Positions 22,071 through 35,626 of a stretch of 64,000 nt of DNA are shown piece by piece. How positions within the stretch are numbered: the first letter of the stretch is position 1; the number at the start of each line of letters is the position of its first letter. The translations under genes and the position numbers were made by a program. The DNA is from Pseudoalteromonas sp. (lineage in GTDB: Bacteria > Pseudomonadota > Gammaproteobacteria > Enterobacterales > Alteromonadaceae). The notes under the pieces are model-generated. The model saw only the letters and a list, made by a program, of their open reading frames with translations. It was not told the origin of the DNA and searched no databases. Where the stretch lies: positions 7,863 through 71,862 of the forward strand of contig NZ_JBFKMX010000001.1 in assembly GCF_041629635.1 (NCBI RefSeq), given 5' to 3'.

Positions 22071-23579
22071 TTATAATGATTCAAAAAACGCGATTTCAAA
22101 CTCTGTGCCTTTGCCTAACTCGCTATTTACAGTCACCTTTGCATTATGCTGTTGTAGAATACTATAAGAAATAGCCAAACCCAGTCCGGTGCCTTCACCT
22201 GGTGCTTTGGTTGTAAAAAATGGGGTGAAAATATCCGCCAAATGCGAAGGGTCAATACCTTCTCCTTGATCTTTTACCGTTACAATTATCTTATTTCGAT
22301 CTTTTTTACTGCTTATTGTAAGTGTACCGCCCTCTGGCATTGCGTGCTTGGCATTTACAAACAGGTTTATAAATACTTGCTGTAATTTCCCTGCGTTGCC
22401 AAGAATACTTGCTTCGGATAGTAGATCTTTAACTACCTGATGTTGATATTTGAATTCGTTACTCACCACATTCAGTGACTTTTCAATCACCAAGTTTAAA
22501 TCAATGCTGTCGAGTTCATCATTGTCCATGCGTGAAAAAGTACTTAAATCAGACACTATGTCTCTTACCCTGATAAGCCCTTGCACGGATGCAGCAAGAA
22601 TATCTTCACTATCTGTTAGTAAAAAATCACCGTCTAGAGTCTGCCAATGGCCCAGCATTTGCTTAACTTTGCTTTGATTGTCTAGGTTGGTATTTGTTAG
22701 TGGTGAAACAATTTCTGAAAAATCATTAAAATAATCTCGCATGGTATCAAGGTTACTTAGGACGAATCCAATGGGGTTATTAATTTCATGTGCTACTCCG
22801 GCAGCTAATTGCCCGAGCGATGCCAACTTTTCTTGTTGCAGTAATTGTTGCTGTGTTTGTTCTAACATTTTATTACTGGTTTCAAGCTCGATTAAGCGCT
22901 CTTGCAGCGTTTCTTCAGCTCGTTTACGTTCAAATGCCACTGCTAACATACTGCGAGAAGATTCCAACGTTTGTAGCTTTACAATATTGATATCTTCTTG
23001 CGATTCGTAAAGTAATATGACAAGGCCAACCGCTTTACCTGACGGTAAATCAAGGGTATAAACAGGAACAATTACGCTATAGACAAAGTGTGCGTTTGCA
23101 TCTTTAGAAATTTCGCTATGCTCAAATATTTGTGATTCGTTTTCATTCAAAACGTGATGATAGAGTTTGTTGTGATTAAGCTGACTCAGTACCTCTTTAA
23201 GGTGCTTTGCTAAAATCTTAGATTCTCGTTCGGACGCTTGGCAATAAGATTGAAATTGATGCAACGAAAGATCCCCATGAATTTCCACAAAAAAATTGTG
23301 TGCAACACTTATAAAATTGTTTGTACGCTCTAGGTAATTTGAAATAATTTTGTGTAAATTGGGTTGTCGCCATGTTTCAGCTAGTAAACCAGTTAAAAAT
23401 TCAAGCTGTTCCTGCTGAGAAGCGATTTCTTGCTTTGTAAGGTTAACCGCTTCTTCTTTCTGGTAGAGCTCTCGAGAAGAGTCTTCAAGTTGCTTTTCGG
23501 CCTCTTTGCGCGCCAAGCGTTCGCGCATTAAAATACGCTCTAGTGCGTCGATTTTGCCCTGGGCGTTAAAATTATTCAT
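22071..23579 (-). CDS. H-NOX-associated sensor histidine kinase
   Basis: N-terminal coiled coil [30 protein letters not shown]-box, [25 protein letters not shown]; overlaps the H-NOX stop codon. Confidence 0.9.
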
Positions 23580-24117
23580 TAAATGTTATTTCAATTTCAC
23601 AACAATCAGCACCTTGGTGCATACAGCTATTCTGCGAGACAGAGACTGATTCTTTAAAGTGTTTTGCGGCACCAAGGATTAGACCCTCAGACAAAAAACA
23701 AAGCTTACGAGGTGAACGGTAAAGCATGGTTAAGTTATCACCAGAATCTCCTCCGTAGCTAAATTCAGGTAATTGCGCTTCTTTATCAAGCTTTTTAACT
23801 TCAACGTGAATCAGCTCATCTACCATCATTAAAAATGTGCGAAGAGAAGGTGCATTTTGAGCTTCATCAGGTGCCAGAGACATCAATAGTGGGAATAAGT
23901 ACTCACCAAAAGTCCTAACTAGGTCGGGAATGGGAACTTCAAGTTGTTCTGATAAGTAACCGATAATGGCGAAAAGTTCAACGTCTTGGTACTGCTTGGT
24001 TGAGGTATAGATCCCATGCGACTCAAGTGTATTGTTGGTCAGCGCTTCATCCCATAATTGATAACCATGGTTTTCTTCTACAAATTCCTGTAGTGCATTA
24101 AAAATTGCTCCCTTCAT
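23572..24117 (-). CDS. Heme NO/O2-binding (H-NOX/HNOB) protein
   Basis: MKGAIF start, FGEYLF, proximal His in IHVEV, conserved Pro, YRSPR (YxSxR) motif, C-terminal CMHQGADCC. Confidence 0.9.
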   Translation of the reverse strand: MKGAIFNALQEFVEENHGYQLWDEALTNNTLESHGIYTSTKQYQDVELFAIIGYLSEQLEVPIPDLVRTFGEYLFPLLMSLAPDEAQNAPSLRTFLMMVDELIHVEVKKLDKEAQLPEFSYGGDSGDNLTMLYRSPRKLCFLSEGLILGAAKHFKESVSVSQNSCMHQGADCCEIEITFNE

Positions 24118-24224
24118 TTTGTCCTCTTTTTAAGCATAATCAGGTTGATCAATTTAAAAAATAGTGTCACTTTTTAGTTAAGGCAATGTTTTTATAATAA
24201 ATAGCGAAATCGCACAGCTCGGGC

Positions 24225-25517
24225 ATGGTGATGACAGACAAGTTAAAATTAATGATTGTTGATGACGAAGTAGAAGTGCTGAATGCTTTGAAAAGGCTGT
24301 TCAGAAAAGACTATGACGTTGACATTTTTAGTGATCCCGAGCTTGCGGTGAAACAGCTGGTTGATACCACTTACGCGGTAATTGTCTCAGATATGAAAAT
24401 GCCAAAAATGTCGGGCGCACAGCTATTGTCAAAAGCATTTGAAATTTGTCCTGATACTGCGCGCATTTTATTGACGGGCTATTCTGATATTGATTCCACC
24501 GCAATGGCGATAAACCAAGGTAAGATTAACAATTATGTCAGTAAGCCTTGGAGTAACGATGAGCTTAGGAATGTGGTGTTGCAAGCCGCCGAACAGTTTC
24601 AACTAAAGCAATCGGTACAACGGTTAGAAGTTGAATTAAAACTGAAAAACGATTTGTTAAAACAGCAAAATTTAGAACTAGAAAGCAAGGTGGAAGAACG
24701 TACGTTATCGCTTTCTATCCTTAATGAGAAATTGAAATCAGCCAATAACCGTCAACGTAGTTTATTTTATGATGTCATTGAGATGATTAATTTGATCATA
24801 GAAGATACCACTGGTGGCGGAGAAGGGCATGTTAAGCGAGTTGCCAGTCACTGTCGTATGCTTGCAATAGCGATGGGGCTTGAAAAAAACCAAGTAACGC
24901 AAGTGTATTTAGCGGGATTAATGCATGAAATTGGCAAAGTATCACTGACCGATAATTTAGCAAAAAGCATTGAAAATGAGCTTTCTCGAGCCGAGCTAAC
25001 TGAAAAACAAAACCATGCAGTTAAAGGCGCTGAAATATTACAAACAGTACCGCACTTAAAAATGATTGGTACAGCTGTAAAACATCAATATGAACGCTTT
25101 GATGGCAGTGGTGTACCAGACCATCTAATAGGTTCTAATATACCATTAGCTTCTAGGATTTTAACTGTAGTAAACGAATTCGACAAATTGGTACTTGGCC
25201 GTATCAGTACACAAAAACTGTCGCAACCACAAGCCATAGATTTTTTAAAGAAAGAGAGTAAGACCTTTTTTGATCCGGAAATTGTCGACGTATACATCAA
25301 GCTACTTAATAGTGAAATTTCGCTTGAGCATCATAATATAGATTTATGTGTCGGAGTGGAGATGCTAGAACCAGGTATGCACTTAAGCCAAGACCTACTT
25401 AACAAACAAGGTGCAGTGGTACTGACGCAAGGTACTGAGATTACTCCCACAGTGATAGCTAAACTAAAAGCCTATGAAAAAGAATGGCGTTACATTTTTA
25501 ATATCTTCGTGCACTAA
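24225..25517 (+). CDS. Response regulator with degenerate HD-GYP domain
   Basis: REC IVDD..IVSDMKMP..SKPW; output has HEIGK, HQYERFDGSGVP and NEFD instead of HDIGK, HHERxDGxGYP and DxFD. Confidence 0.85.
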   Translation: MVMTDKLKLMIVDDEVEVLNALKRLFRKDYDVDIFSDPELAVKQLVDTTYAVIVSDMKMPKMSGAQLLSKAFEICPDTARILLTGYSDIDSTAMAINQGKINNYVSKPWSNDELRNVVLQAAEQFQLKQSVQRLEVELKLKNDLLKQQNLELESKVEERTLSLSILNEKLKSANNRQRSLFYDVIEMINLIIEDTTGGGEGHVKRVASHCRMLAIAMGLEKNQVTQVYLAGLMHEIGKVSLTDNLAKSIENELSRAELTEKQNHAVKGAEILQTVPHLKMIGTAVKHQYERFDGSGVPDHLIGSNIPLASRILTVVNEFDKLVLGRISTQKLSQPQAIDFLKKESKTFFDPEIVDVYIKLLNSEISLEHHNIDLCVGVEMLEPGMHLSQDLLNKQGAVVLTQGTEITPTVIAKLKAYEKEWRYIFNIFVH

Positions 25518-25682: not shown

Positions 25683-25812
25683 TCTTACCGAAAACAGGCG
25701 ATTTGCAGCCCATCCTATTTCTTTGAGCGTTAAACTATTTCTCACTTTCTTGCGACTAATTTCTAACTATAGTCAAGCACGTTGTTTGCGAAAAAATAAA
25801 ATAGGGAACGCA

Positions 25813-28800
25813 ATGAACATTACAATTCGGGCTTTAAAAAATCCGGCGGGGGTAGCGATATTTGTCACCTTGTGCTTGGTATTAGGAATAGTTAGTTTTA
25901 CAAAACTACCTATTCAACTATTTCCAGATATTGAACGACCTCAAATTACCATTTTTACCAGTTGGCGACAGGCGTCACCTGCGGAAATGGAATCTGAAAT
26001 TCTTGAGCCACAAGAAGATGTATTGCAAGGCTTACCTGGGCTTACCAGTTTAAGAACGTTTGCCAACTCAGGGTCGTCGTTCGTTAACTTAACTTTCACT
26101 CTCGATACCGATATGGATAAAACCTTGATCGAGGTGATTAGTCGCATGAACCGTGTGCCACCGCTGCCACGCGATGTAAATCCGCCGGTGATTAGCTTGG
26201 GCGGCTTTAATGGCGGTGCACCAGCACTTACTTATTTCTTCTTACAAGCATTACCGGGCAATGATAAGCCGATTGGTGAATATGCTACGTTTTTTGATGA
26301 CACCATTCGCCCACGCTTAGAAAGCATTCCGGGTGTAGCACGTGTGCAATTACAAACAGGTAACTCAAGTGAGCAATTACAAATCGAATTTGATGCATAT
26401 CGCGCTGCGGAGCTTGGCATCAATTTAACTCGCGTAAGCAATTTAATTGGTTCGGCTAATGATGCGTCGGGTGGGTATGCGGATATTGGCCGGCGCCGTT
26501 ATACGCTGCGTTTTGCAGGTCGCTTTGATCCAACACAGTTAGGTAACTTAGTGCTTGAATGGCGCGATGGTAAGCCAATTAAACTAAGTGATATTGCAGA
26601 AATTAAAGTGACGCGAGACCAAGATAATGGCAGCGCGGTACAAAATGGTAACCCTGCGATGTCAGTGCGTATTGACCGTGAAAGTGGCGCAAATGTACTA
26701 GCCACCCTTGAACGAGTTAAAGCGGAAGTTGATAAAATTCGCAGCCAAGTACTTGAGCCGCAACAACTTACAATGCATCAGTCGTTTGATGCCTCAGTCT
26801 TTATCTACCGTGCGATTAATCTTGTATCAAGTAATTTAGTGCTTGGTATTTTACTCGCAGTGGGCGTTTTATGGTGGTTCCTACGTCAGCGCAGAGCCAC
26901 TTTGATTGTGGCAATGGCTATTCCAATTTCAATTATGACGACCTTTATTGTGCTTAACATTACAGGGCGTTCGCTTAATGTGATATCACTGGCGGGTTTA
27001 GCTTTTGCAACGGGTATGGTACTGGATGCTGCAATTGTGGTGCTTGAAAACATTGTTAGGCTTAAAACCCAAGGTTTGCGTGCTGATAAAGCCGCAGCGA
27101 AAGGCACTCAGTTGGTCTCAGGTGCCTTGATGGCCTCAACGGCAACTACCATAGCGATTTTTATTCCGGTTATTTTTTTACGCGATGTGGCTGGACAGTT
27201 CTTTGCGGATTTAGCGCTCACCATTGCGATTGCCGTATTTATTTCGTTATTGGTGGCACTTACGATTTTACCTGTGGCTGCGAAAATGTGGCTCACTCAG
27301 GCAGTGGAAGAAGATAGGCTTGATGGTCTTTGGCAAAATATCACTTCTAAAATTATGCAATTGACAAATTCCAGTAAAAAACGTGTAGCGGTGATTGTTA
27401 CTCTGATGGCTGCGCCCGTGGCGTTAACTGTATTGTTATTGCCTCCACTTGATTATTTACCCCCGGTAAAACGTGATGCAGTAGATGCTTTTGTTAGATT
27501 ACCAACTGGTTCAAACCAAGAGTTTGTTGAGCGTGAATACATTAAACCGTTAGTTGAGCGCTTGCAGCCTTATATGGATGGCACTAAGCAACCAGCACTG
27601 AAAAACTACTATATTTTGTCGTTCCCAGGCAACGCAAACTTAGGCGTACGTGCAAAGGATCAATCACAAGTGAAAGAGCTTGAACGTGTAATGCGTGAAG
27701 AAATCTTGGTTGATTTACCAGATACCCGTGTTTTTTCTCAGCAGGGAAATCTCTTTGGTGGTTTAGGCTCAGGGCGCAGTATTCAAATTCATTTACAAAG
27801 CCGCGACACGCGCGCCATGGCAGATGTGGCTGATAAAGCGCGCGACATTTTGCAAGCACGCTTTGAAGGCAGCAATATTAACATCAACCCAGGTACGCAA
27901 GATGCTGAGCCGGAGTTACGTCTATTGCCAAATGACCGTCGCATGATGGAAGTGGGTTTTAACCGTCGCGATTTAGCGCAAATTACACGAGCAATGGGCA
28001 CAGGCCTTTATGTGGGTGAATACTTTGATGGCAATAAACGCCTCGATATGATTTTCAAAGCCGAGGGCTGGCAAAATCCTGAAGAGCTTTCAGCAATGCC
28101 AATCACTACACCGAGTGGCACCGTTGTGCAATTGGGCGAGCTAGTGGATGTAACGCGCACAGTTGGCCCATCACGTATTCAACGCATTGACCGTCGCCGC
28201 ACCATTACAGTGAATGTTAATCCGCCAGAAGGCATGTCGCTGCAACAGGCAATGACGATTATTGAAACGAAAATTGAGCCGCAAATTAAAGCATTGATGC
28301 CTGCGGATGGATCAATTAACTACGGAGGCAGTGCTGATAGTTTAAAACAGTCTATTCAAACCATGGGGCAAAACTTTATTTTGGCACTTGGATTACTATT
28401 TATTCTGATGGCCGGTCTCTTTAAATCGTTAAAAGATAGTCTCATGGTAACTTTATCGATTCCACTTGCAACGGTCGGTGGTGTACTGGCATTACAATTG
28501 ATGAACTTAATTCAGTTCCAACCGCTCGATTTGTTAACCATGATAGGTTTTATCATATTGCTTGGCTTGGTGGTTAACAACGCAATCTTACTTGTGGATC
28601 AAACTCGTCAAGGTGAACGTGAAGGCCTAAGCCGTGAGATGGCAGTAGAACAAGCGCTGAAGCTACGTTTACGACCAATCTTTATGAGTACGTTAACCAG
28701 TATTTTCGGCATGTTACCATTGCTTATTATGCCGGGTGAGGGCAGTGTTATCTACCGCGGCCTTGCTGCTGTGATTGTGGGAGGCATGCTGTTCTCGACG

Positions 28801-28908
28801 TTATTCACCTTAGTACTGCTACCAGCGCTACTGAAACAATTTTCAACCCGAACAAGTGTTCAACCAACTCCTGTTACTTCAACTCAAACACAACTGAAAG
28901 GGAATTAG
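25813..28908 (+). CDS. RND efflux permease (AcrB/AcrD/AcrF family)
   Basis: LPIQLFPDIERP, SLNVISLAGLAFATGMVLDAAIVVLEN, RLRPIFMSTLTSIFGMLPL; start moved to ATG 25813 behind AGGGA. Confidence 0.92.
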   Translation: MNITIRALKNPAGVAIFVTLCLVLGIVSFTKLPIQLFPDIERPQITIFTSWRQASPAEMESEILEPQEDVLQGLPGLTSLRTFANSGSSFVNLTFTLDTDMDKTLIEVISRMNRVPPLPRDVNPPVISLGGFNGGAPALTYFFLQALPGNDKPIGEYATFFDDTIRPRLESIPGVARVQLQTGNSSEQLQIEFDAYRAAELGINLTRVSNLIGSANDASGGYADIGRRRYTLRFAGRFDPTQLGNLVLEWRDGKPIKLSDIAEIKVTRDQDNGSAVQNGNPAMSVRIDRESGANVLATLERVKAEVDKIRSQVLEPQQLTMHQSFDASVFIYRAINLVSSNLVLGILLAVGVLWWFLRQRRATLIVAMAIPISIMTTFIVLNITGRSLNVISLAGLAFATGMVLDAAIVVLENIVRLKTQGLRADKAAAKGTQLVSGALMASTATTIAIFIPVIFLRDVAGQFFADLALTIAIAVFISLLVALTILPVAAKMWLTQAVEEDRLDGLWQNITSKIMQLTNSSKKRVAVIVTLMAAPVALTVLLLPPLDYLPPVKRDAVDAFVRLPTGSNQEFVEREYIKPLVERLQPYMDGTKQPALKNYYILSFPGNANLGVRAKDQSQVKELERVMREEILVDLPDTRVFSQQGNLFGGLGSGRSIQIHLQSRDTRAMADVADKARDILQARFEGSNININPGTQDAEPELRLLPNDRRMMEVGFNRRDLAQITRAMGTGLYVGEYFDGNKRLDMIFKAEGWQNPEELSAMPITTPSGTVVQLGELVDVTRTVGPSRIQRIDRRRTITVNVNPPEGMSLQQAMTIIETKIEPQIKALMPADGSINYGGSADSLKQSIQTMGQNFILALGLLFILMAGLFKSLKDSLMVTLSIPLATVGGVLALQLMNLIQFQPLDLLTMIGFIILLGLVVNNAILLVDQTRQGEREGLSREMAVEQALKLRLRPIFMSTLTSIFGMLPLLIMPGEGSVIYRGLAAVIVGGMLFSTLFTLVLLPALLKQFSTRTSVQPTPVTSTQTQLKGN

Positions 28909-28910
28909 TT

Positions 28911-29969
28911 ATGAGATACGTTATTTCAACCATTTTATGTACCTTACTGGCATTAATCAGCTGTTTTGCCAGTGCCAATGAACGTCCCGATCCGTTAGTT
29001 GCATTAGGAGAAGTTGAACAAGCCGAAATCGCTGAACAAATGTGGGTACCAGGCACTGTGGTTAGTCGTTTTGACTCGCGCCTGACCACTGAGGTTTCTG
29101 GTGTAGTAAAACGCATTGCTGAAGTAGGTGAGCGCTTTAAAAAAGGCGATACTATTCTGCTTTTGGATGATGCATTTTTACAACTTGAAAAGCAGCAAGC
29201 AAGTGCCAGTATTAAAAGCTTTGATACGCGTGTTACTTTGCTTGAGCGCCAGTTAATACGTTTAGAAAAGCTTGGCAAAAACGCCTCTCTTGATGCCTTA
29301 GAGGCTAAAGAGGCTGAATTGATGATGGCAAAGCAAGAGCTTGAACAGGCGAAAATCACCTTTCAACGTATTGCCCTGCAATTAGAGAAAACACAGCTGG
29401 TAGCACCATTTGATGGCACAATTGTTGAGCGTTATAAACAAGTTGGCGAATTTAGCCAAACCAATGCACCCGCGGTGCGTTTAGTCAGTCTTGATGATTT
29501 AGAGGTTCGCGCTAATGCGCCACTCTCTCATACTCAATTTAACCAAGTCGGTGATGATGTATTTATTGCTAACAAAGAAGGTCGTTTTAGCTCAAAAGTA
29601 CGCGCTCTTGTTCCAGTAGGCGATGAATTAAGTCGTACCATGGAAGTACGTGTGTCATTAAGCGATCGCTCGTTACCTATTGGTACTGCGGTGCGGGTTA
29701 GCCTTGCCAGTAGTGCAAAACATAATGCGCTTACAGTTCATCGCGATGCGCTTATTTTGCGCCAAGACAAAGTATATGTGAATGTAGTGCAGGACGATTT
29801 AACTGTTAAACAAGTCACTGTGACACCTGGTAGTGGTTTTAATGAACTTATCGAAGTGAAAGGTGAATTAACATTAGGTGCAAAAGTGGCAATCCGTGGT
29901 AGTGAGATGCTGCGCGATGGTGCAAAAGTGCGTGTTAAATCAACGGACAATTTAGTTGCCCTGCGTTAA
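28911..29969 (+). CDS. RND periplasmic adaptor (MFP/HlyD family)
   Basis: Signal peptide, EVSGVV..VGERFKKGD lipoyl half, APFDGTIV, alpha-hairpin. Confidence 0.9.
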   Translation: MRYVISTILCTLLALISCFASANERPDPLVALGEVEQAEIAEQMWVPGTVVSRFDSRLTTEVSGVVKRIAEVGERFKKGDTILLLDDAFLQLEKQQASASIKSFDTRVTLLERQLIRLEKLGKNASLDALEAKEAELMMAKQELEQAKITFQRIALQLEKTQLVAPFDGTIVERYKQVGEFSQTNAPAVRLVSLDDLEVRANAPLSHTQFNQVGDDVFIANKEGRFSSKVRALVPVGDELSRTMEVRVSLSDRSLPIGTAVRVSLASSAKHNALTVHRDALILRQDKVYVNVVQDDLTVKQVTVTPGSGFNELIEVKGELTLGAKVAIRGSEMLRDGAKVRVKSTDNLVALR

Positions 29970-31468: not shown

Positions 31469-31517
31469 ATTGATCAGTGTTCTAACTAATGTTATATTGA
31501 TTAGTGTTCTAATTAAT
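31469..31517. repeat. Two 22-bp palindromic direct repeats, candidate MarR/CosR operators
   Basis: ATTGATCAGTGTTCTAACTAAT (31469-31490) and ATTGATTAGTGTTCTAATTAAT (31496-31517), 20/22 identical; the second is a near-perfect palindrome. Confidence 0.7.
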
Positions 31518-31703: not shown

Positions 31704-32546
31704 ATGATGACAGCGACACAATTTGATAGTGAAATGACACTCACAGGAAATAAAATTCGATTTGGCAAACTAAATGACCGCGTCTATATAACGGATGCAA
31801 CAATTGAATTACCCAATACTTTTCACAAAGAGGTCGAAGATTTTGCTAAGCAAGGTGGATACAGCAAAATAATCGCGAAAGTAAAAGATGCCCAAGTATT
31901 ACCTTTTCTAAAAAGGGGATACCAAATAGAAGCTACCGTTCCAGGTTATTTTGGTCTACAAGATGCTATTTTTATTTCACGCTTTTTTGATGAAGAACGT
32001 GCATCATGTGAGCATATGGATCTTAGCGACGGTATTATTAATGAAGTACAAAATGTTGACACGTGGGATCCATCATCCTTTTCGCAGCCAGTGCTTTTCC
32101 GTAAGTGTAACCAGGTTGATGTGCGTGCACTTTCTAAGTTATACCAACTTGCCTTTTCCAGCTATGGATCACCGATAGGTGATGAACATTATATTTCACA
32201 GAGCATTGAAAATGGCGTGGACTATTTTTGTGTTGAGTATATGGATGCAATTGTTGCATGTGTGCGTATTGAATATGAAAAAGATGCACCTAATGCACGT
32301 CTTTACGATACGGTGGTATTACGTCAATTTCGTAATGAAGGAATTGCATCTGCTTTAATCTTTGAAGCCAGAAGATACCTAAAAAATAACGGTGTAGAAT
32401 TTATTTATTCGATTTGCAGGGCTTCATCGTTCGCCATCAATAAAGTGTTTGCAAGACTTGCTTTTGAATACGGGGGGCGGCTTATAAACAATAATTTAGT
32501 TAATAACAAACTTGTATCAATGAATGTATGGTCACAGAAACTCTGA
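31704..32546 (+). CDS. ablB: Putative beta-lysine N-acetyltransferase (AblB/YodP-like GNAT)
   Basis: SKIIAKV, GYQIEATVPGYF, RASSFAINKVF, YGGRLINN, MNVW follow B. subtilis YodP as recalled. Confidence 0.75.
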   Translation: MMTATQFDSEMTLTGNKIRFGKLNDRVYITDATIELPNTFHKEVEDFAKQGGYSKIIAKVKDAQVLPFLKRGYQIEATVPGYFGLQDAIFISRFFDEERASCEHMDLSDGIINEVQNVDTWDPSSFSQPVLFRKCNQVDVRALSKLYQLAFSSYGSPIGDEHYISQSIENGVDYFCVEYMDAIVACVRIEYEKDAPNARLYDTVVLRQFRNEGIASALIFEARRYLKNNGVEFIYSICRASSFAINKVFARLAFEYGGRLINNNLVNNKLVSMNVWSQKL

Positions 32547-32588: not shown

Positions 32589-35135
32589 ATGACGAGTACA
32601 TTAAAACAACAATTAGATCGATTTACTGCAGAGCAAAATACCCGATTTTTCTCTAGCCCTATCGCTGTGTTACTAGAAGAACGTGCAAATAAATTAGATG
32701 AGATCTTGATTGTAATGTGGCAAGAATGTGGTCTTGCGGATTCTTGCTGTTCACTCAATGCGGTCGGTGGTTATGGACGCACATCACTTCATCCTTATTC
32801 TGACATTGATATTGCTATTATTGCTCCTGATGATGGCTCTGTTTTTCCTGAGCGTGAAATCAGTGATTTTATTATGGGCTTATGGGACCTTGGACTTGAT
32901 ATTGGTCATTCAGTGCGAACAGAATCACAAGCAAAAAAATATGCAACTGAAGATATAACTATCGCAACTAACTTACTGGATATTAGGTGTTTATATGGAA
33001 ATAAACAGCATTCAAAAAGGGTGCGAAACTTTTTGTATGATGAGCAAGGTTGGGCAGATCAGGCTTTTTTGCAAGCTAAGTTAAAAGAGCAAAATGAAAG
33101 GCACAAAAAAGCACTTAATACAGCACTTTATTTAGAGCCAAATATTAAGGCAAATCCTGGTGGTTTAAGGGACTTTCAAACTATTTTATGGGTTGCACGC
33201 AAACATTTAAAAATATCACATACTGAGTTACTTGCGCAGGGAGATCTGTTGCAAGAGGATGAACATTTTGAACTTATTGAAGCGTATGATTTCATTTGTC
33301 GTATTCGCTGGGCACTTCATTGTGTAGCAAAAAAACCACAAGAAACACTGTTGTTCGAGTATCAAGCTGAAGTTGCTGAATTCTTGAAATTTGGTCGCGG
33401 CGATAGCGCACAACAGGCAATTGAGCGTATGATGCGTCAATTGTTTCGTGCAATGACCCGTTTACAAGAGCTTAATCAAATCTTATGTGGAAATGTACGA
33501 AGCAGCATTATGCGCGATCAGCAAAAGCAGATTATTAAACTAAACCAACAGTTCTCATTAGTTGATGGTCTGTTAAATGCAAACACTGCAAGTGTATTTA
33601 TTGATAAAGCGCAGGTGATAAATTTATTTGTGTTGCTAGCGCACCATACTCAAGCTAAAGGCATTTCTTCTCATACTTTACAGTTATTGAGAAAAGTAAA
33701 ACACCGCCTTCTTGGAGAACTCCAAGACTACCAAAGTTGTCGGGAAGCATTTATTCGCTTATTTGAACATCCAAAAACATTAAAAAAAGTGTTAGGTCTA
33801 ATGCATCGCTACGGAGTGCTCGAAATGTATTCAACACAATGGGCACAAAGCGAAGGTAGGATGCAATTTGATATTCACAATGCCTATACGGTAGATGAGC
33901 ATGTTTATAAAACTGTGTCATACATTTCAGATTTCGCATTCAGTAATGATAATCAAGAGAGTTACCACGTTGCTTATGGGCGTGTGCAAAATAAATTAGC
34001 GTTACTGTTAGCGGCTTTTTGTCATCATTTAGCAGGGTCACAAGAAAGCGATAGTCATAGCACGAGTGCTATATTAGCTAGGGAGTTTGCACGTTTTCAC
34101 AACTTAAAAAATGCATCTGTTGAACTGATAGAGTGGCTTATTGAAAATCAAGAATTGTTAATCACAACCAGTCGTACATTAGATATTTACGATCCGAGAA
34201 CGATTAAGGCACTCAATAAAAAGATTAAGTCGCTAGAACGCTTAAATGCTCTCTATACTTTAACGGTTGCAGATATAATGGCAACCAATGAAGATGCGTG
34301 GAATGATTGGCAAGCCGCAATTTTAGAGCAACTTTATTTAGCATCACGTGAAGCATTGAAAACCGATGGAAAAAGTATTTTTGAACAGCGTACTGTTATT
34401 CGAGAAAATAAAGCACAAGCACAAACCATTTTATCAAACAGTGATATAGCATTAGATAATGTGACGGCTTTTTGGTCGACACTCCCGAACAGTTTTTTTA
34501 CTTTCACTAGTGCAAAAGAATTGTCAGAAATTACCGCCAAAGTTGTATCAACTCAGCAGTTTCCGTTGGTTTTTATAACGCAAAGCGAACAGCAAGGCTG
34601 CTCTACTTTAGTTGTGTATACCCCTAATAGGCAAAAACTATTTGTCGACATTTTTAATACATTGACTCGTGCAAAGGTGAATGTAAAAGATGCTGAGCTG
34701 TTAGAAACCAAAGATGGTAACGTATTGGAAGTGTTTCGCGTACTTGACTTCAATGATGAACAGTTAAGCGAGAGTTATCGTATAAAACGTGTTATTAGTC
34801 AAATAGAGCAAGTCATTACGTCAGGACATAAAGACTGCAAGTTACCTGTTGCAAAGAAGATTAAAAACTTTGACTCTGAACCCATGGTGGAATTTATACC
34901 TACGCCCAAGCGCGATCGCACGCTGCTCAAAGTGACAACATTGAACAACCCAAGCTATGTCGATAAAATTTGTTCTGTCTTTCGAACTCACACATTGTCT
35001 ATTCATTCAGCTAAAGTGACAACACTGGGAGAAAGTTTGGAAAGTGTGTTTTTACTTTCAGACATTCACAACCAGTGTTTAAAAGAAGACTTACGTAATC
35101 AAGTCATTGATGCGTTCAGTTATAATTTACATTAA
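32589..35135 (+). CDS. glnD: [Protein-PII] uridylyltransferase-like protein, divergent GlnD paralogue
   Basis: AVGGYGR, HPYSDIDI, LEPNIKANPGGLRD, YTVDEH, two ACT domains; HD motif reads CHHLAG; not in the usual map-glnD-dapD context. Confidence 0.85.
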   Translation: MTSTLKQQLDRFTAEQNTRFFSSPIAVLLEERANKLDEILIVMWQECGLADSCCSLNAVGGYGRTSLHPYSDIDIAIIAPDDGSVFPEREISDFIMGLWDLGLDIGHSVRTESQAKKYATEDITIATNLLDIRCLYGNKQHSKRVRNFLYDEQGWADQAFLQAKLKEQNERHKKALNTALYLEPNIKANPGGLRDFQTILWVARKHLKISHTELLAQGDLLQEDEHFELIEAYDFICRIRWALHCVAKKPQETLLFEYQAEVAEFLKFGRGDSAQQAIERMMRQLFRAMTRLQELNQILCGNVRSSIMRDQQKQIIKLNQQFSLVDGLLNANTASVFIDKAQVINLFVLLAHHTQAKGISSHTLQLLRKVKHRLLGELQDYQSCREAFIRLFEHPKTLKKVLGLMHRYGVLEMYSTQWAQSEGRMQFDIHNAYTVDEHVYKTVSYISDFAFSNDNQESYHVAYGRVQNKLALLLAAFCHHLAGSQESDSHSTSAILAREFARFHNLKNASVELIEWLIENQELLITTSRTLDIYDPRTIKALNKKIKSLERLNALYTLTVADIMATNEDAWNDWQAAILEQLYLASREALKTDGKSIFEQRTVIRENKAQAQTILSNSDIALDNVTAFWSTLPNSFFTFTSAKELSEITAKVVSTQQFPLVFITQSEQQGCSTLVVYTPNRQKLFVDIFNTLTRAKVNVKDAELLETKDGNVLEVFRVLDFNDEQLSESYRIKRVISQIEQVITSGHKDCKLPVAKKIKNFDSEPMVEFIPTPKRDRTLLKVTTLNNPSYVDKICSVFRTHTLSIHSAKVTTLGESLESVFLLSDIHNQCLKEDLRNQVIDAFSYNLH

Positions 35136-35626
35136 TTTTTACTTTCACCATCAGTACTCATACCGATAGGAGCAATTTCTAACATAGGGGCTGCGTCAAG
35201 ATCACTTGCATCCATCATAGTTGCAATTCGCTGCATTGATGAGAGCAATAGACTTTGTTCCCATTGTTCAAGGGCGCAAAAATTCTGAATAAAGTGTTCT
35301 TGCAAGGGTTGGGGTGCATCGATAAGAGAGGTTCTTCCTATATCCGTTAGAAATAAACTAACACGGCGTTTATCTTCTTTGCTGCGTACACGCTCGATTA
35401 GGCCGCGAGACTCTAGTCTATCCAGAATGTTTGTTACAGTTGCCGCGCTTAAATTAATTTCTTTCGCAACAGCACCTGCTGTAACGCCCTTAATACGAGC
35501 GATTTCTTGCATTATCAACAGCTGTGGGCCAGTTAGACCTGAAGATTTATTAAGTTGTTTTGAATGCAAATCGATGGCTCTAATAACTTTACGGATGGAG
35601 ACAAGCAGTTCTTCGTATTTTTCCAT
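35132..35626 (-). CDS. cosR: MarR-family regulator, CosR/EctR-like
   Basis: IRAIDLHSKQL, GLTGPQL, ILDRLE, DKRRV, APQPLQEHF, LEQWEQSLLLSSMQRIA match the CosR/EctR subfamily as recalled. Confidence 0.75.
   Translation of the reverse strand: MEKYEELLVSIRKVIRAIDLHSKQLNKSSGLTGPQLLIMQEIARIKGVTAGAVAKEINLSAATVTNILDRLESRGLIERVRSKEDKRRVSLFLTDIGRTSLIDAPQPLQEHFIQNFCALEQWEQSLLLSSMQRIATMMDASDLDAAPMLEIAPIGMSTDGESKN

What the first reader, a model, noticed from the sequence alone, without database searches (positions are those of the whole stretch)
32589..35135. GlnD paralogue with intact transferase site but broken uridylyl-removing HD motif
Seen: GGYGR and SDID retained, but HDIAKGRGGDHS is replaced by HHLAGSQESDSHS (HH at 34023-34028). 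The second ACT domain has NNPSYV where DxPGLL is usual, and the gene is outside the map-dapD context. Known: the HD pair is needed for UR activity and ACT domains sense glutamine. Inference: a one-way, possibly glutamine-blind uridylyltransferase that would force a nitrogen-limitation signal, or one that modifies a non-PII target.
Basis: partly seen in the sequence, partly recalled or inferred. Interest (0 to 1): 0.68.

Follow-up and report, generated by a model that had tools for sequence, protein, structure and literature searches.

The report
Second GlnD with dead uridylyl-removing site
This marine bacterium has, besides its normal nitrogen-sensor enzyme GlnD, a conserved second copy whose "eraser" site is dismantled but whose "writer" site is intact, encoded beside salt-stress genes, so it probably adds the PII signal mark without removing it.

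Summary
ORF 32589-35135 (+, 848 aa) is a full-length GlnD homologue. GGYGR and SDIDI are intact, HH replaces HD at 34023-34028, and NNPSYV sits in ACT2. A canonical glnD in map-glnD-dapD context lies on another contig.

The gene is not a decaying copy. It belongs to an old monophyletic paralogue clade ("GlnD2") in marine Gammaproteobacteria, and every GlnD2 genome in the 401-genome order survey also holds a canonical GlnD. In the HD-degenerate subclade, 27 of 28 canonical-invariant NT columns survive but only 23 of 58 HD columns. The losses go beyond HD->HH. K498->G, the GRGGDHS loop and H536->Q are fixed across that subclade. dN/dS is about 0.1 or lower, and the predicted fold is intact.

Several lineages share a cassette of a CosR-like MarR, an AblB-derived GNAT and GlnD2. 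In P. phenolica the GNAT-MarR pair flanks betIBA-BCCT.

My best reading is a transferase-only PII uridylyltransferase, expressed with osmotic-stress genes, that relies on canonical GlnD for removal. This parallels RelA/SpoT. Activity, target and glutamine response are untested. I found no prior description. It is a new variant of a known kind.

The parts
31473..31517 (+). Tandem 18-bp operator-like repeat (ATCAGTGTTCTAACTAAT at 31473-31490; ATTAGTGTTCTAATTAAT at 31500-31517; 27-bp period), about 190-230 bp upstream of the GNAT start and overlapping a sigma70-like match
   Evidence: conserved in the two sister genomes, and the only 0-1-mismatch occurrences in the 4.03-Mb genome. A promoter-like site at 31470-31498 overlaps it. 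Related RGTTCTAA half-sites lie upstream of the cassette in other lineages.
31704..32546 (+). AblB-family two-domain GNAT (280 aa) that keeps the RxxGxA acetyl-CoA motif; first gene of the apparent two-gene operon
   Evidence: TIGR03827 215.7 bits against a cut-off of 205.1, and Pfam Acetyltransf_1. No ablA in the genome. Orthologues lie directly upstream of GlnD2 in G001, G018, G182, G253 and G264.
32589..35135 (+). GlnD2: GlnD paralogue, 848 aa, starting 42 nt after the GNAT stop with a GGAG 10 nt upstream of the ATG
32736..33068 (+). Nucleotidyltransferase (UTase) domain with GGYGR (32766-32780), SDIDI (32799-32813) and LWDLGLDIGHSVRT (32880-32921); catalytic signature intact
   Evidence: 27 of 28 columns invariant in HD-intact GlnDs are kept in the HD-degenerate subclade. 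The fold matches GlnE and DrrA nucleotidyltransferases.
33861..34388 (+). Degenerate HD domain. First His (TVDEH, 33888-33902) and last Asp (TVADIMATN, 34263-34289) are kept. HD->HH (34023-34028). AKGRGGDHS->AGSQESDSH (34029-34061, Lys->Gly at 34035-34037). His536->Gln (34149-34151)
   Evidence: No PF01966 hit. Only 23 of 58 canonical-invariant columns are kept. The domain is still predicted to fold, with loop 481-490 at pLDDT 68, and has a low dN of 0.09.
34566..34823 (+). ACT domain 1
   Evidence: Pfam ACT 4.7e-05 over aa 673-727; beta-alpha-beta-beta-alpha-beta topology in the model; tandem-ACT structural matches
34884..35129 (+). ACT domain 2, with NNPSYV (34944-34961) in the beta1-alpha1 loop where canonical GlnD has D-x-P-G-L-L
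   Evidence: The loss of the loop Gly is shared by the whole GlnD2 clade, including HD-intact members.
35132..35626 (-). MarR-family regulator (164 aa), convergent with GlnD2 and overlapping its stop by 4 nt; inferred CosR orthologue
   Evidence: Pfam MarR. It is 84-90% identical to MarR genes adjacent to GlnD2 or the GNAT in G001, G018, Colwellia, G182 and P. phenolica. The single best homologues in seven Vibrio-like genomes (52-59% id) lie next to BCCT, OpuAC or an ABC-ATPase gene in the five loci checked, which is the context published for CosR.

Best explanation
The gene encodes a conserved, functional paralogue of the PII uridylyltransferase/uridylyl-removing enzyme GlnD. It has been subfunctionalised into a transferase-only enzyme. 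Shown here: it coexists with a canonical glnD. It belongs to an old monophyletic paralogue clade. Its nucleotidyltransferase signature is fully retained. The metal and phosphate ligands of the HD (uridylyl-removing) site are replaced by other conserved residues. It evolves under purifying selection. In several lineages it is linked to a CosR-like MarR and an AblB-derived GNAT. Inferred: it uridylylates GlnB and GlnK on Tyr51 but cannot remove UMP, so removal depends on canonical GlnD. Because its ACT2 ligand loop differs, its response to glutamine is probably altered. When expressed with the GNAT, probably on relief of repression by the adjacent MarR during osmotic stress, it would shift the PII-UMP/PII steady state upwards at a given glutamine level. 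That would keep glutamine synthetase, NtrBC and AmtB active while glutamate, glutamine and nitrogen-rich osmolyte pools are high.
For: A canonical glnD exists elsewhere in the genome. The paralogue clade is monophyletic (SH-aLRT 100), and the HD-degenerate subclade is monophyletic (100). In the 401-genome order survey, every genome with GlnD2 also has a canonical copy. The degenerate subclade keeps 27/28 NT and 31/36 PF08335 canonical invariants but only 23/58 in HD. K498->G, R500->Q, H504, G508->S and H536->Q are lost in 100% of it, mostly replaced by other conserved residues. None of the 56 degenerate-clade clusters has a PF01966 hit, while all but one HD-intact cluster do. dN is 0.13 with saturated dS, and the HD and ACT regions are the most conserved parts. 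The AlphaFold model is confident, with pLDDT 85.8 and all four domain types folded. The nearest solved folds are the Tyr-nucleotidylating enzymes GlnE and DrrA. Both PII proteins keep the Tyr51 T-loop. The MarR-GNAT-GlnD2 cassette recurs in several lineages. The MarR is CosR-like by context. The GNAT-MarR pair lies next to betIBA-BCCT in P. phenolica. A genome-unique tandem operator-like repeat lies upstream. The HD domain is assigned the UR role and the NT domain the UTase role in Merrick 2015 (PMC4285133). The RelA/SpoT precedent is described in PMC6606846.
Against: No enzymatic, expression or genetic data exist for any member. Three of the four classical HD ligands remain (His434, His479, Asp562), and a His replaces the fourth, so a metal site with some altered hydrolytic activity cannot be excluded. 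The target is assumed to be PII only from conservation of the N-terminal half. The GNAT and MarR links are absent in Moritella, Shewanella halifaxensis and G154, so the osmotic context is not universal. The operator motif was not found at Vibrio cosR loci. The residues by which ACT domains sense glutamine in GlnD are unknown, so glutamine blindness is speculation.
Confidence: 0.5

Rival explanations
1. GlnD2 is a nucleotidyltransferase that has been retargeted to a non-PII substrate, for example the co-encoded AblB-like GNAT or another osmotic-stress protein. The HD domain is kept only as a scaffold.
For: The GNAT gene directly abuts or overlaps GlnD2 in Colwelliaceae and Thalassotalea. In those lineages the GNAT has lost its acetyl-CoA motif, as if it were a partner or substrate and not an enzyme. 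No extra PII accompanies GlnD2. The GlnE/DrrA-type fold modifies diverse Tyr targets.
Against: The N-terminal half keeps 58 of 64 canonical-invariant columns, which would be unexpected after a change of protein substrate. The GNAT is absent from many GlnD2 genomes. PII is the only known GlnD substrate (PMC4285133).
Confidence: 0.17
2. GlnD2 is still bifunctional. The remodelled site (His, His-His or His-Asp, and Asp) still binds metal and removes UMP, perhaps with a different metal or different regulation.
For: His434, His479 and Asp562 are invariant. 38% of the degenerate subclade keeps HD. The HD region is among the most conserved parts of the protein (dN 0.09).
Against: Lys498, the GRGGDHS loop, His504 and His536 are lost in 100% of the subclade. 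The Pfam HD model fails in all 56 clusters. Per Merrick 2015, the HD domain encodes the UR activity.
Confidence: 0.12
3. GlnD2 is a non-catalytic sensor or scaffold (a pseudoenzyme) that binds PII or small molecules through its ACT and HD domains without transferring nucleotides.
For: One catalytic domain is already dead. The ACT and HD regions are the most conserved parts among close orthologues, and the first 160 residues are the least conserved.
Against: All nucleotidyltransferase catalytic motifs (GGYGR, SDID, DIGHSVR) are invariant across the clade.
Confidence: 0.07
4. It is a decaying redundant duplicate with no function.
For: One Moritella-type genome (G025) carries the gene with two in-frame TAA stops. 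The gene is patchy within the genus, present in 3 of 25 genomes.
Against: The frame is intact in about 55 protein clusters spanning at least six genera. dN/dS is about 0.1 or lower. The substitutions are conserved-but-different. The predicted fold is confident.
Confidence: 0.02

Closest known systems
Canonical GlnD (bifunctional [protein-PII] uridylyltransferase/uridylyl-removing enzyme, TIGR01693; E. coli and R. rubrum type)
   Same: Same four-part architecture (NT, helical GlnD_UR_UTase region, HD-fold domain, two ACT domains). Full-length collinear alignment at 34% identity to the genome's own GlnD. Intact NT catalytic motifs.
   Different: It is a second copy outside map-glnD-dapD. The HD signature HD-x-x-K-G-R-G-G-D-H-S and the downstream His are replaced. 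The ACT2 D-x-P-G-L-L loop is replaced. It is about 23 aa shorter at the N-terminus. It is linked to a GNAT and a MarR.
RelA versus SpoT (long RelA/SpoT-homologue enzymes of beta- and gammaproteobacteria)
   Same: An ancestral bifunctional enzyme with an HD hydrolase domain, a nucleotidyl/pyrophosphoryl-transferase domain and C-terminal regulatory domains (including ACT) was duplicated. One paralogue retains a folded but catalytically degenerate HD domain and acts as a dedicated writer, while the other stays bifunctional (PMC6606846).
   Different: A different superfamily member and a different reaction (protein uridylylation, not (p)ppGpp synthesis). The analogy is functional, not one of membership. 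GlnD2 retains three of the four classical HD ligands.
HD-intact GlnD2 members (Shewanella 868-937 aa, Aliikangiella, unnamed metagenomic lineages)
   Same: They belong to the same monophyletic paralogue clade, are also second copies or lie outside map-dapD, and share the altered ACT2 loop.
   Different: They keep FHD[IL]AKGRGGDHS and a Pfam HD hit, so they are presumably still bifunctional. They have different conserved neighbours (an RsuA-like gene and an STM3941-like gene).
CosR/EctR1-type MarR regulators with compatible-solute genes (Vibrio)
   Same: The adjacent MarR's best Vibrio-like homologues lie next to BCCT, OpuAC or ProV-type genes, as published for cosR. In P. phenolica the orthologue lies by betIBA-BCCT.
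   Different: Here the regulated genes would be a GNAT and a nitrogen-signalling enzyme, not a solute pathway or transporter. Binding has not been shown, and the operator motif was not found at Vibrio cosR loci.
AblB (N-epsilon-acetyl-beta-lysine synthase GNAT, TIGR03827), paired with AblA
   Same: The same two-domain GNAT family. True ablA-like/ablB pairs exist in the same order.
   Different: There is no ablA partner. The score is barely above the cut-off (215.7 against 205.1) or well below it in the Colwelliaceae partners (100-126 bits), which also lack the acetyl-CoA motif.

Membership tests
GlnD, [protein-PII] uridylyltransferase/uridylyl-removing enzyme (TIGR01693) | Full-length match to the family model above its curated cut-off | tested here: met
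   606.3 bits against a cut-off of 519.4, covering aa 19-838. It falls below the cut-offs of all the finer PRK equivalog models.
GlnD, [protein-PII] uridylyltransferase/uridylyl-removing enzyme (TIGR01693) | N-terminal nucleotidyltransferase domain with the G-G-x-G-R ... D-x-D catalytic signature (UTase) | tested here: met
   GGYGR aa 60-64 and SDIDI aa 71-75; invariant across 63 aligned sequences; 27/28 canonical invariants kept.
GlnD, [protein-PII] uridylyltransferase/uridylyl-removing enzyme (TIGR01693) | HD domain with the H...HD(xxK)...H...D signature that carries the uridylyl-removing activity | tested here: not met
   No PF01966 hit. HD->HH, K498->G, H504 lost and H536->Q; only 23/58 canonical invariants kept.
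GlnD, [protein-PII] uridylyltransferase/uridylyl-removing enzyme (TIGR01693) | Two C-terminal ACT domains | tested here: met
   Pfam ACT hit, weak and below the gathering score. Two beta-alpha-beta-beta-alpha-beta units in the model. Structural matches to tandem-ACT proteins. The ACT2 ligand loop is altered.
GlnD, [protein-PII] uridylyltransferase/uridylyl-removing enzyme (TIGR01693) | map-glnD-dapD gene context typical of gammaproteobacteria | tested here: not met
   The neighbours are a GNAT and a MarR. The canonical copy on C103 has the map/dapD context.
GlnD, [protein-PII] uridylyltransferase/uridylyl-removing enzyme (TIGR01693) | Uridylylation of PII Tyr51 and glutamine-stimulated deuridylylation | not testable with these tools
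   Requires enzyme assays. Both PII proteins of the genome keep Tyr51.
CosR-type MarR osmoregulator (for the neighbour 35132-35626) | MarR winged-helix protein of about 160 aa whose Vibrio orthologue lies next to bcct or bet-proXWV genes | tested here: met
   Pfam MarR. There is a single best homologue in each of 7 Vibrio-like genomes (52-59% id). In the five loci checked it lies next to BCCT, OpuAC or an ABC-ATPase gene.
CosR-type MarR osmoregulator (for the neighbour 35132-35626) | Salinity-dependent repression of compatible-solute genes by direct binding | not testable with these tools
   Only an operator-like tandem repeat was found. No match at Vibrio cosR loci.
AblB beta-lysine N-acetyltransferase (TIGR03827) (for the neighbour 31704-32546) | Match above the curated cut-off | tested here: met
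   215.7 bits against 205.1, a marginal pass. True AblBs in the same order score 290-341 bits.
AblB beta-lysine N-acetyltransferase (TIGR03827) (for the neighbour 31704-32546) | Paired with a lysine-2,3-aminomutase gene (ablA) | tested here: not met
   None in the window. The only genomic hit is EpmB-like at 212.5 bits against a cut-off of 525.4.

The most novel reading that the evidence does not exclude
GlnD2 is a natural one-way "writer" that decouples PII uridylylation from the glutamine signal. Together with a CosR-type regulator and an AblB-derived GNAT or pseudo-GNAT, it would form a previously unrecognised osmotic-to-nitrogen signalling module. Alternatively, it nucleotidylates a new, non-PII target such as its GNAT-like partner, which would be the first second substrate for the GlnD family.
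Probability: 0.2. Interest if true: 0.8.

Novelty: new variant of a known kind. Interest (0 to 1): 0.62.

Why it matters
GlnD is described in reviews as a single bifunctional enzyme whose only known substrate is PII and whose two activities are balanced by glutamine (PMC4285133). A conserved natural paralogue with the removal site dismantled would add a second, separately regulated input into PII modification. This would be analogous to the RelA/SpoT split in the stringent response. Its recurrent linkage to a CosR-like regulator, an AblB-derived GNAT and, in a relative, the betaine operon gives a testable hypothesis. The hypothesis addresses how marine bacteria keep nitrogen assimilation switched on when osmotic stress inflates glutamate and glutamine pools. 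Public databases currently name these proteins the same as canonical GlnD, so the paralogy is invisible in annotations. Transferase-only PII modifiers are also of practical interest for engineering nitrogen regulation (PMC6490700).

Tried and rejected
1. Decaying pseudogene. Rejected on dN/dS, clade-wide open frames and conserved replacement residues. Only G025 has stops.

2. A dedicated extra PII partner. Rejected: all 25 same-genus genomes have two PII genes (one has a third fragment below the family cut-off), whether or not they carry GlnD2.

3. The GNAT as a true AblB making acetyl-beta-lysine. There is no ablA in the genome, and true ablA-like/ablB pairs in the order score much higher.

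4. The GNAT as an obligate partner. Rejected: it is absent from Moritella, G213 and G154, and no GNAT remnants are seen in the Colwellia MarR-GlnD2 spacer.

5. Operator motif at Vibrio cosR loci. Not found, so the MarR-operator link remains an inference.

6. Sequence search of the PDB for GlnD2 and the GNAT. No hits. The fold search found only GlnE, CCA-enzyme, DrrA and ACT proteins, and no solved GlnD.

7. Literature searches for GlnD paralogues, glnD2 or a second glnD. Nothing relevant. Zhang et al. 2010 (PMC2876476) and Gregory et al. 2020 (PMC7205483) are not held.

9. Synonymous divergence is saturated for GlnD2, so only an upper bound on dN/dS could be given.
Full report
**Observation**

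ORF 32589..35135 (+) encodes 848 aa. It matches the GlnD equivalog TIGR01693 over almost its whole length at 606.3 bits (cut-off 519.4). It also matches Pfam GlnD_UR_UTase at 8.8e-38. It has no Pfam HD (PF01966) hit even at E<=0.01, and only weak ACT hits.

- GGYGR at nt 32766-32780.
- SDIDI at 32799-32813.
- HH at 34023-34028 (CATCAT).
- LAGSQESDSHS at 34029-34061.
- NNPSYV at 34944-34961.

The flanking genes are a GNAT (31704..32546, +) and a convergent MarR (35132..35626, -), not map and dapD.

**A canonical copy exists**

The assembly (4.03 Mb, 278 contigs) holds a second GlnD on contig C103. That copy scores 896.8 bits, is 871 aa long, and has FHDIAKGRGGDHS and VDIPGLL. Methionine aminopeptidase lies immediately upstream and dapD immediately downstream. 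The two proteins are 34% identical and collinear.

**It belongs to an old paralogue clade**

A search of 5.8 billion proteins returned three groups.
- Group A is 56 clusters, 40-82% identical to the window protein. They come from Pseudoalteromonas, Colwelliaceae, Thalassotalea, Thalassomonas, Shewanella, Moritella and Paraferrimonas. None has a precomputed HD hit. All have [CF]H[HD]L[SA]G.Q in place of FHD[IL]AKGRGGDHS.
- Group B is 38-42% identical (mainly Shewanella, plus Aliikangiella). It has an intact HD signature but a GlnD2-like ACT2 loop.
- Group C is ordinary GlnDs.

A maximum-likelihood tree of 73 sequences included the canonical copies from the same genomes. It places A+B as one clade (SH-aLRT 100, stem 0.83), nested among canonical GlnDs of related families. 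Within that clade, group A is monophyletic (100, stem 0.59). Group A splits into a CHD subclade (Colwellia and relatives) and a CHH subclade (99) that contains the window gene.

In 401 genomes of the order, every genome with a GlnD2 also has a canonical copy at 33-36% identity. Within the window's genus, 3 of 25 genomes carry GlnD2, and in one of them it lies on the 1.6-Mb second replicon. Basal HD-intact members also lie outside map-dapD.

**What is kept and what is lost**

I took the 170 alignment columns that are at least 97% invariant in the 65 HD-intact GlnDs and counted how many group A keeps in at least 90% of sequences.

| Region | Canonical-invariant columns | Kept in group A |
|---|---|---|
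| NT domain | 28 | 27 |
| PF08335 region | 36 | 31 |
| Middle region | 28 | 19 |
| HD domain | 58 | 23 |
| ACT1 | 9 | 5 |
| ACT2 | 8 | 4 |

Within HD, the Asp of the HD pair survives in 38% of group A and is His in 61%. The following are lost in 100% of group A: Lys498 (now Gly), Gly499, Arg500 (Gln in 96%), Gly501, His504, Gly508 (Ser in 96%), Asp511 and His536 (now Gln). The first His (TVDEH) and the last Asp (T[VI]AD..ATN) remain invariant.

The conserved feature is therefore not HH as such. It is the replacement of the whole HDxxKGRGGDHS...H signature by a different conserved sequence. This is the pattern of a changed constraint, not of decay.

The ACT2 beta1-alpha1 loop (canonical D-x-P-G-L-L) lacks its Gly throughout A and B. 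That change therefore predates the HD loss.

**Selection and fold**

Among the three Pseudoalteromonas orthologues, dN is 0.13 and dS is saturated. Where dS could be computed it was 1.3-2.5, which gives dN/dS of about 0.1 or lower. The HD region (dN 0.09) and the ACT domains (0.06-0.12) are the most conserved parts, and the first 160 residues are the least (0.25). The canonical glnD of the same genomes has dN/dS of 0.02-0.03.

AlphaFold2 with a 63-sequence alignment gives mean pLDDT 85.8 and pTM 0.71, with all domains folded. Only the replaced loop 481-490 dips, to 68. Foldseek finds GlnE, a CCA-type enzyme and DrrA for the N-terminal half, and tandem-ACT proteins for the C-terminus. No GlnD structure is solved.

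One Moritella-type genome (G025) has the gene broken by two TAA codons, so occasional loss does occur.

**Gene context**

In the three Pseudoalteromonas genomes the order is RND pump, HlyD, AEC transporter, GNAT, GlnD2, MarR (convergent), DUF2391, ETR1_N/PAS kinase, RR, RR-GGDEF.

Across genera three arrangements recur:
- MarR-GNAT-GlnD2 on one strand: G182 (with GNAT and GlnD2 overlapping) and G264.
- GNAT-GlnD2: G253.
- MarR-GlnD2: G213 and Colwellia sp. 1_MG-2023.

The MarR is 85% identical between the window and Colwellia, although GlnD2 is only 47-48% identical. This MarR family is widespread at 66-90% identity in marine gammaproteobacteria, including species without GlnD2.

Its single best homologue in each of seven Vibrio-like genomes is 52-59% identical. 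In the five loci checked, that homologue lies next to BCCT, OpuAC or an ABC-ATPase (ProV-like) gene. This is the context published for the osmotic repressor CosR (bioRxiv 10.1101/845297; PMC7876524).

In P. phenolica and in a metagenomic contig the arrangement is betI-betB-betA-BCCT, divergent from GNAT, followed by the convergent MarR (84% identical). This is the window's layout minus GlnD2.

The GNAT belongs to the AblB family, but only marginally (215.7 bits against a cut-off of 205.1). There is no ablA in the genome. True ablA-like/ablB pairs elsewhere in the order score 290-341 bits. The Colwelliaceae and Thalassotalea partners score only 100-126 bits and have lost the R/QxxGxG/A acetyl-CoA motif that the window GNAT retains.

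The GNAT is missing from Moritella, G213 and G154, and no GNAT gene was seen in the S. halifaxensis GlnD2 locus. It is therefore an accessory partner, not an obligate one.

A tandem 18-bp repeat (31473-31490 and 31500-31517) lies upstream of the GNAT and overlaps a promoter-like match. It is conserved in the sister genomes. At 0-1 mismatch it occurs nowhere else in the genome. Related RGTTCTAA half-sites occur upstream of the cassette in G264, G213, Moritella and P. phenolica, but not at Vibrio cosR loci.

**Targets**

The genome has two PII genes, a glnB-like gene and glnK-amtB, and both keep the Tyr51 T-loop. All 25 same-genus genomes have two PII genes (one has a third fragment below the family cut-off), with or without GlnD2. 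No dedicated extra PII accompanies the paralogue.

**Interpretation**

According to the review literature, the N-terminal domain of GlnD carries the UTase activity and the HD domain the UR activity. [quoted passage not shown]

Given an intact NT signature and a dismantled HD signature under purifying selection, the most economical reading is a transferase-only paralogue. Its product, PII-UMP, would be erased by the canonical GlnD.

The closest precedent in logic is RelA/SpoT. There, duplication of a bifunctional enzyme left one paralogue with a degenerate, inactive HD domain (PMC6606846).

Expression from a GNAT-glnD2 operon beside a CosR-like repressor suggests the following. The enzyme may raise the PII-UMP steady state during osmotic stress, when glutamate and glutamine pools are high and would otherwise signal nitrogen excess. 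Every step beyond the sequence facts is inference: activity, target, ligand, regulation and physiology.

The rivals are a retargeted transferase (0.17), a still-bifunctional enzyme with a remodelled metal site (0.12), a pseudoenzyme (0.07) and decay (0.02).

**Novelty**

Six full-text searches found no description of a GlnD paralogue with a degenerate HD domain and nothing linking GlnD to CosR or AblB-like GNATs. Public sources name these proteins simply "[protein-PII] uridylyltransferase" or "bifunctional ... GlnD". I classify it as a new variant of a known kind.

My checks agree with the anatomy. They add orthology by context, but the binding itself remains untested.

**Limits**

Two key papers are not in the held library.

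Noticed in passing
window 22071-25517: An H-NOX (haem-NO-binding) gene (23572-24117, -) is followed by a histidine kinase (22071-23579, -). Divergent from them lies a response regulator with an HD-GYP-type HD_5 domain (24225-25517, +). This looks like an NO-sensing, c-di-GMP-linked module.
   Followed up: no
window 36360-40314: A histidine kinase has an N-terminal ETR1_N (ethylene-receptor-like, 2.1e-37) membrane domain plus several PAS domains. It is followed by a stand-alone receiver and a receiver-GGDEF protein. The arrangement is conserved next to the GlnD2 cassette in all three Pseudoalteromonas genomes.
   Followed up: no
window 25723-29969: The RND pump/HlyD region has a GC content of 0.44-0.45, against 0.36-0.40 around it. 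Identity to the sister genomes is uneven: the RND protein is 97% identical to G001's and the HlyD protein 99% to G018's, but the HlyD is only 87% identical to G001's (neighbouring genes 65-95%). This may reflect recent exchange or strong constraint.
   Followed up: no
L019 8556-11174 (G025, Moritella-type genome): The GlnD2 orthologue is split by two in-frame TAA codons into 711-aa and 144-aa ORFs, while four sister genomes keep it intact. This is a lineage-specific loss.
   Followed up: partly
L071 10113-10934, L075 7109-7924, L066 11013-11831: The GNAT partners of GlnD2 in Colwelliaceae and Thalassotalea align collinearly with the window GNAT. They have lost the R/QxxGxG/A acetyl-CoA-binding motif and may be pseudo-GNATs.
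   Followed up: partly
L092 1352-8388 (Pseudoalteromonas phenolica), L093: betI-betB-betA-BCCT is divergent from an AblB-like GNAT, followed by a convergent CosR-like MarR. No GlnD2 lies between them. It is the same layout as the window minus the GlnD paralogue.
   Followed up: partly
G000 C1 versus C103; G001, G018: Synonymous divergence of GlnD2 between the three Pseudoalteromonas genomes is saturated, while canonical glnD of the same genome pairs has dS of 0.9-1.6. Either the paralogue has much weaker codon constraint, or its history differs from that of the core genome.
   Followed up: no
G019:C1:1579285-1583307, G006:C1:98160-101923, G013:C6, G002:C454: In several same-genus genomes a PII gene lies about 1.2 kb from the canonical glnD. 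In the window's genome the two PII genes and the canonical glnD are on different contigs.
   Followed up: no
Shewanella loci L020, L076-L083: HD-intact GlnD2 genes of Shewanella have their own conserved neighbourhood. An RsuA-like pseudouridine synthase lies divergent upstream, and an STM3941-family membrane protein and a small secreted-looking protein lie downstream.
   Followed up: partly
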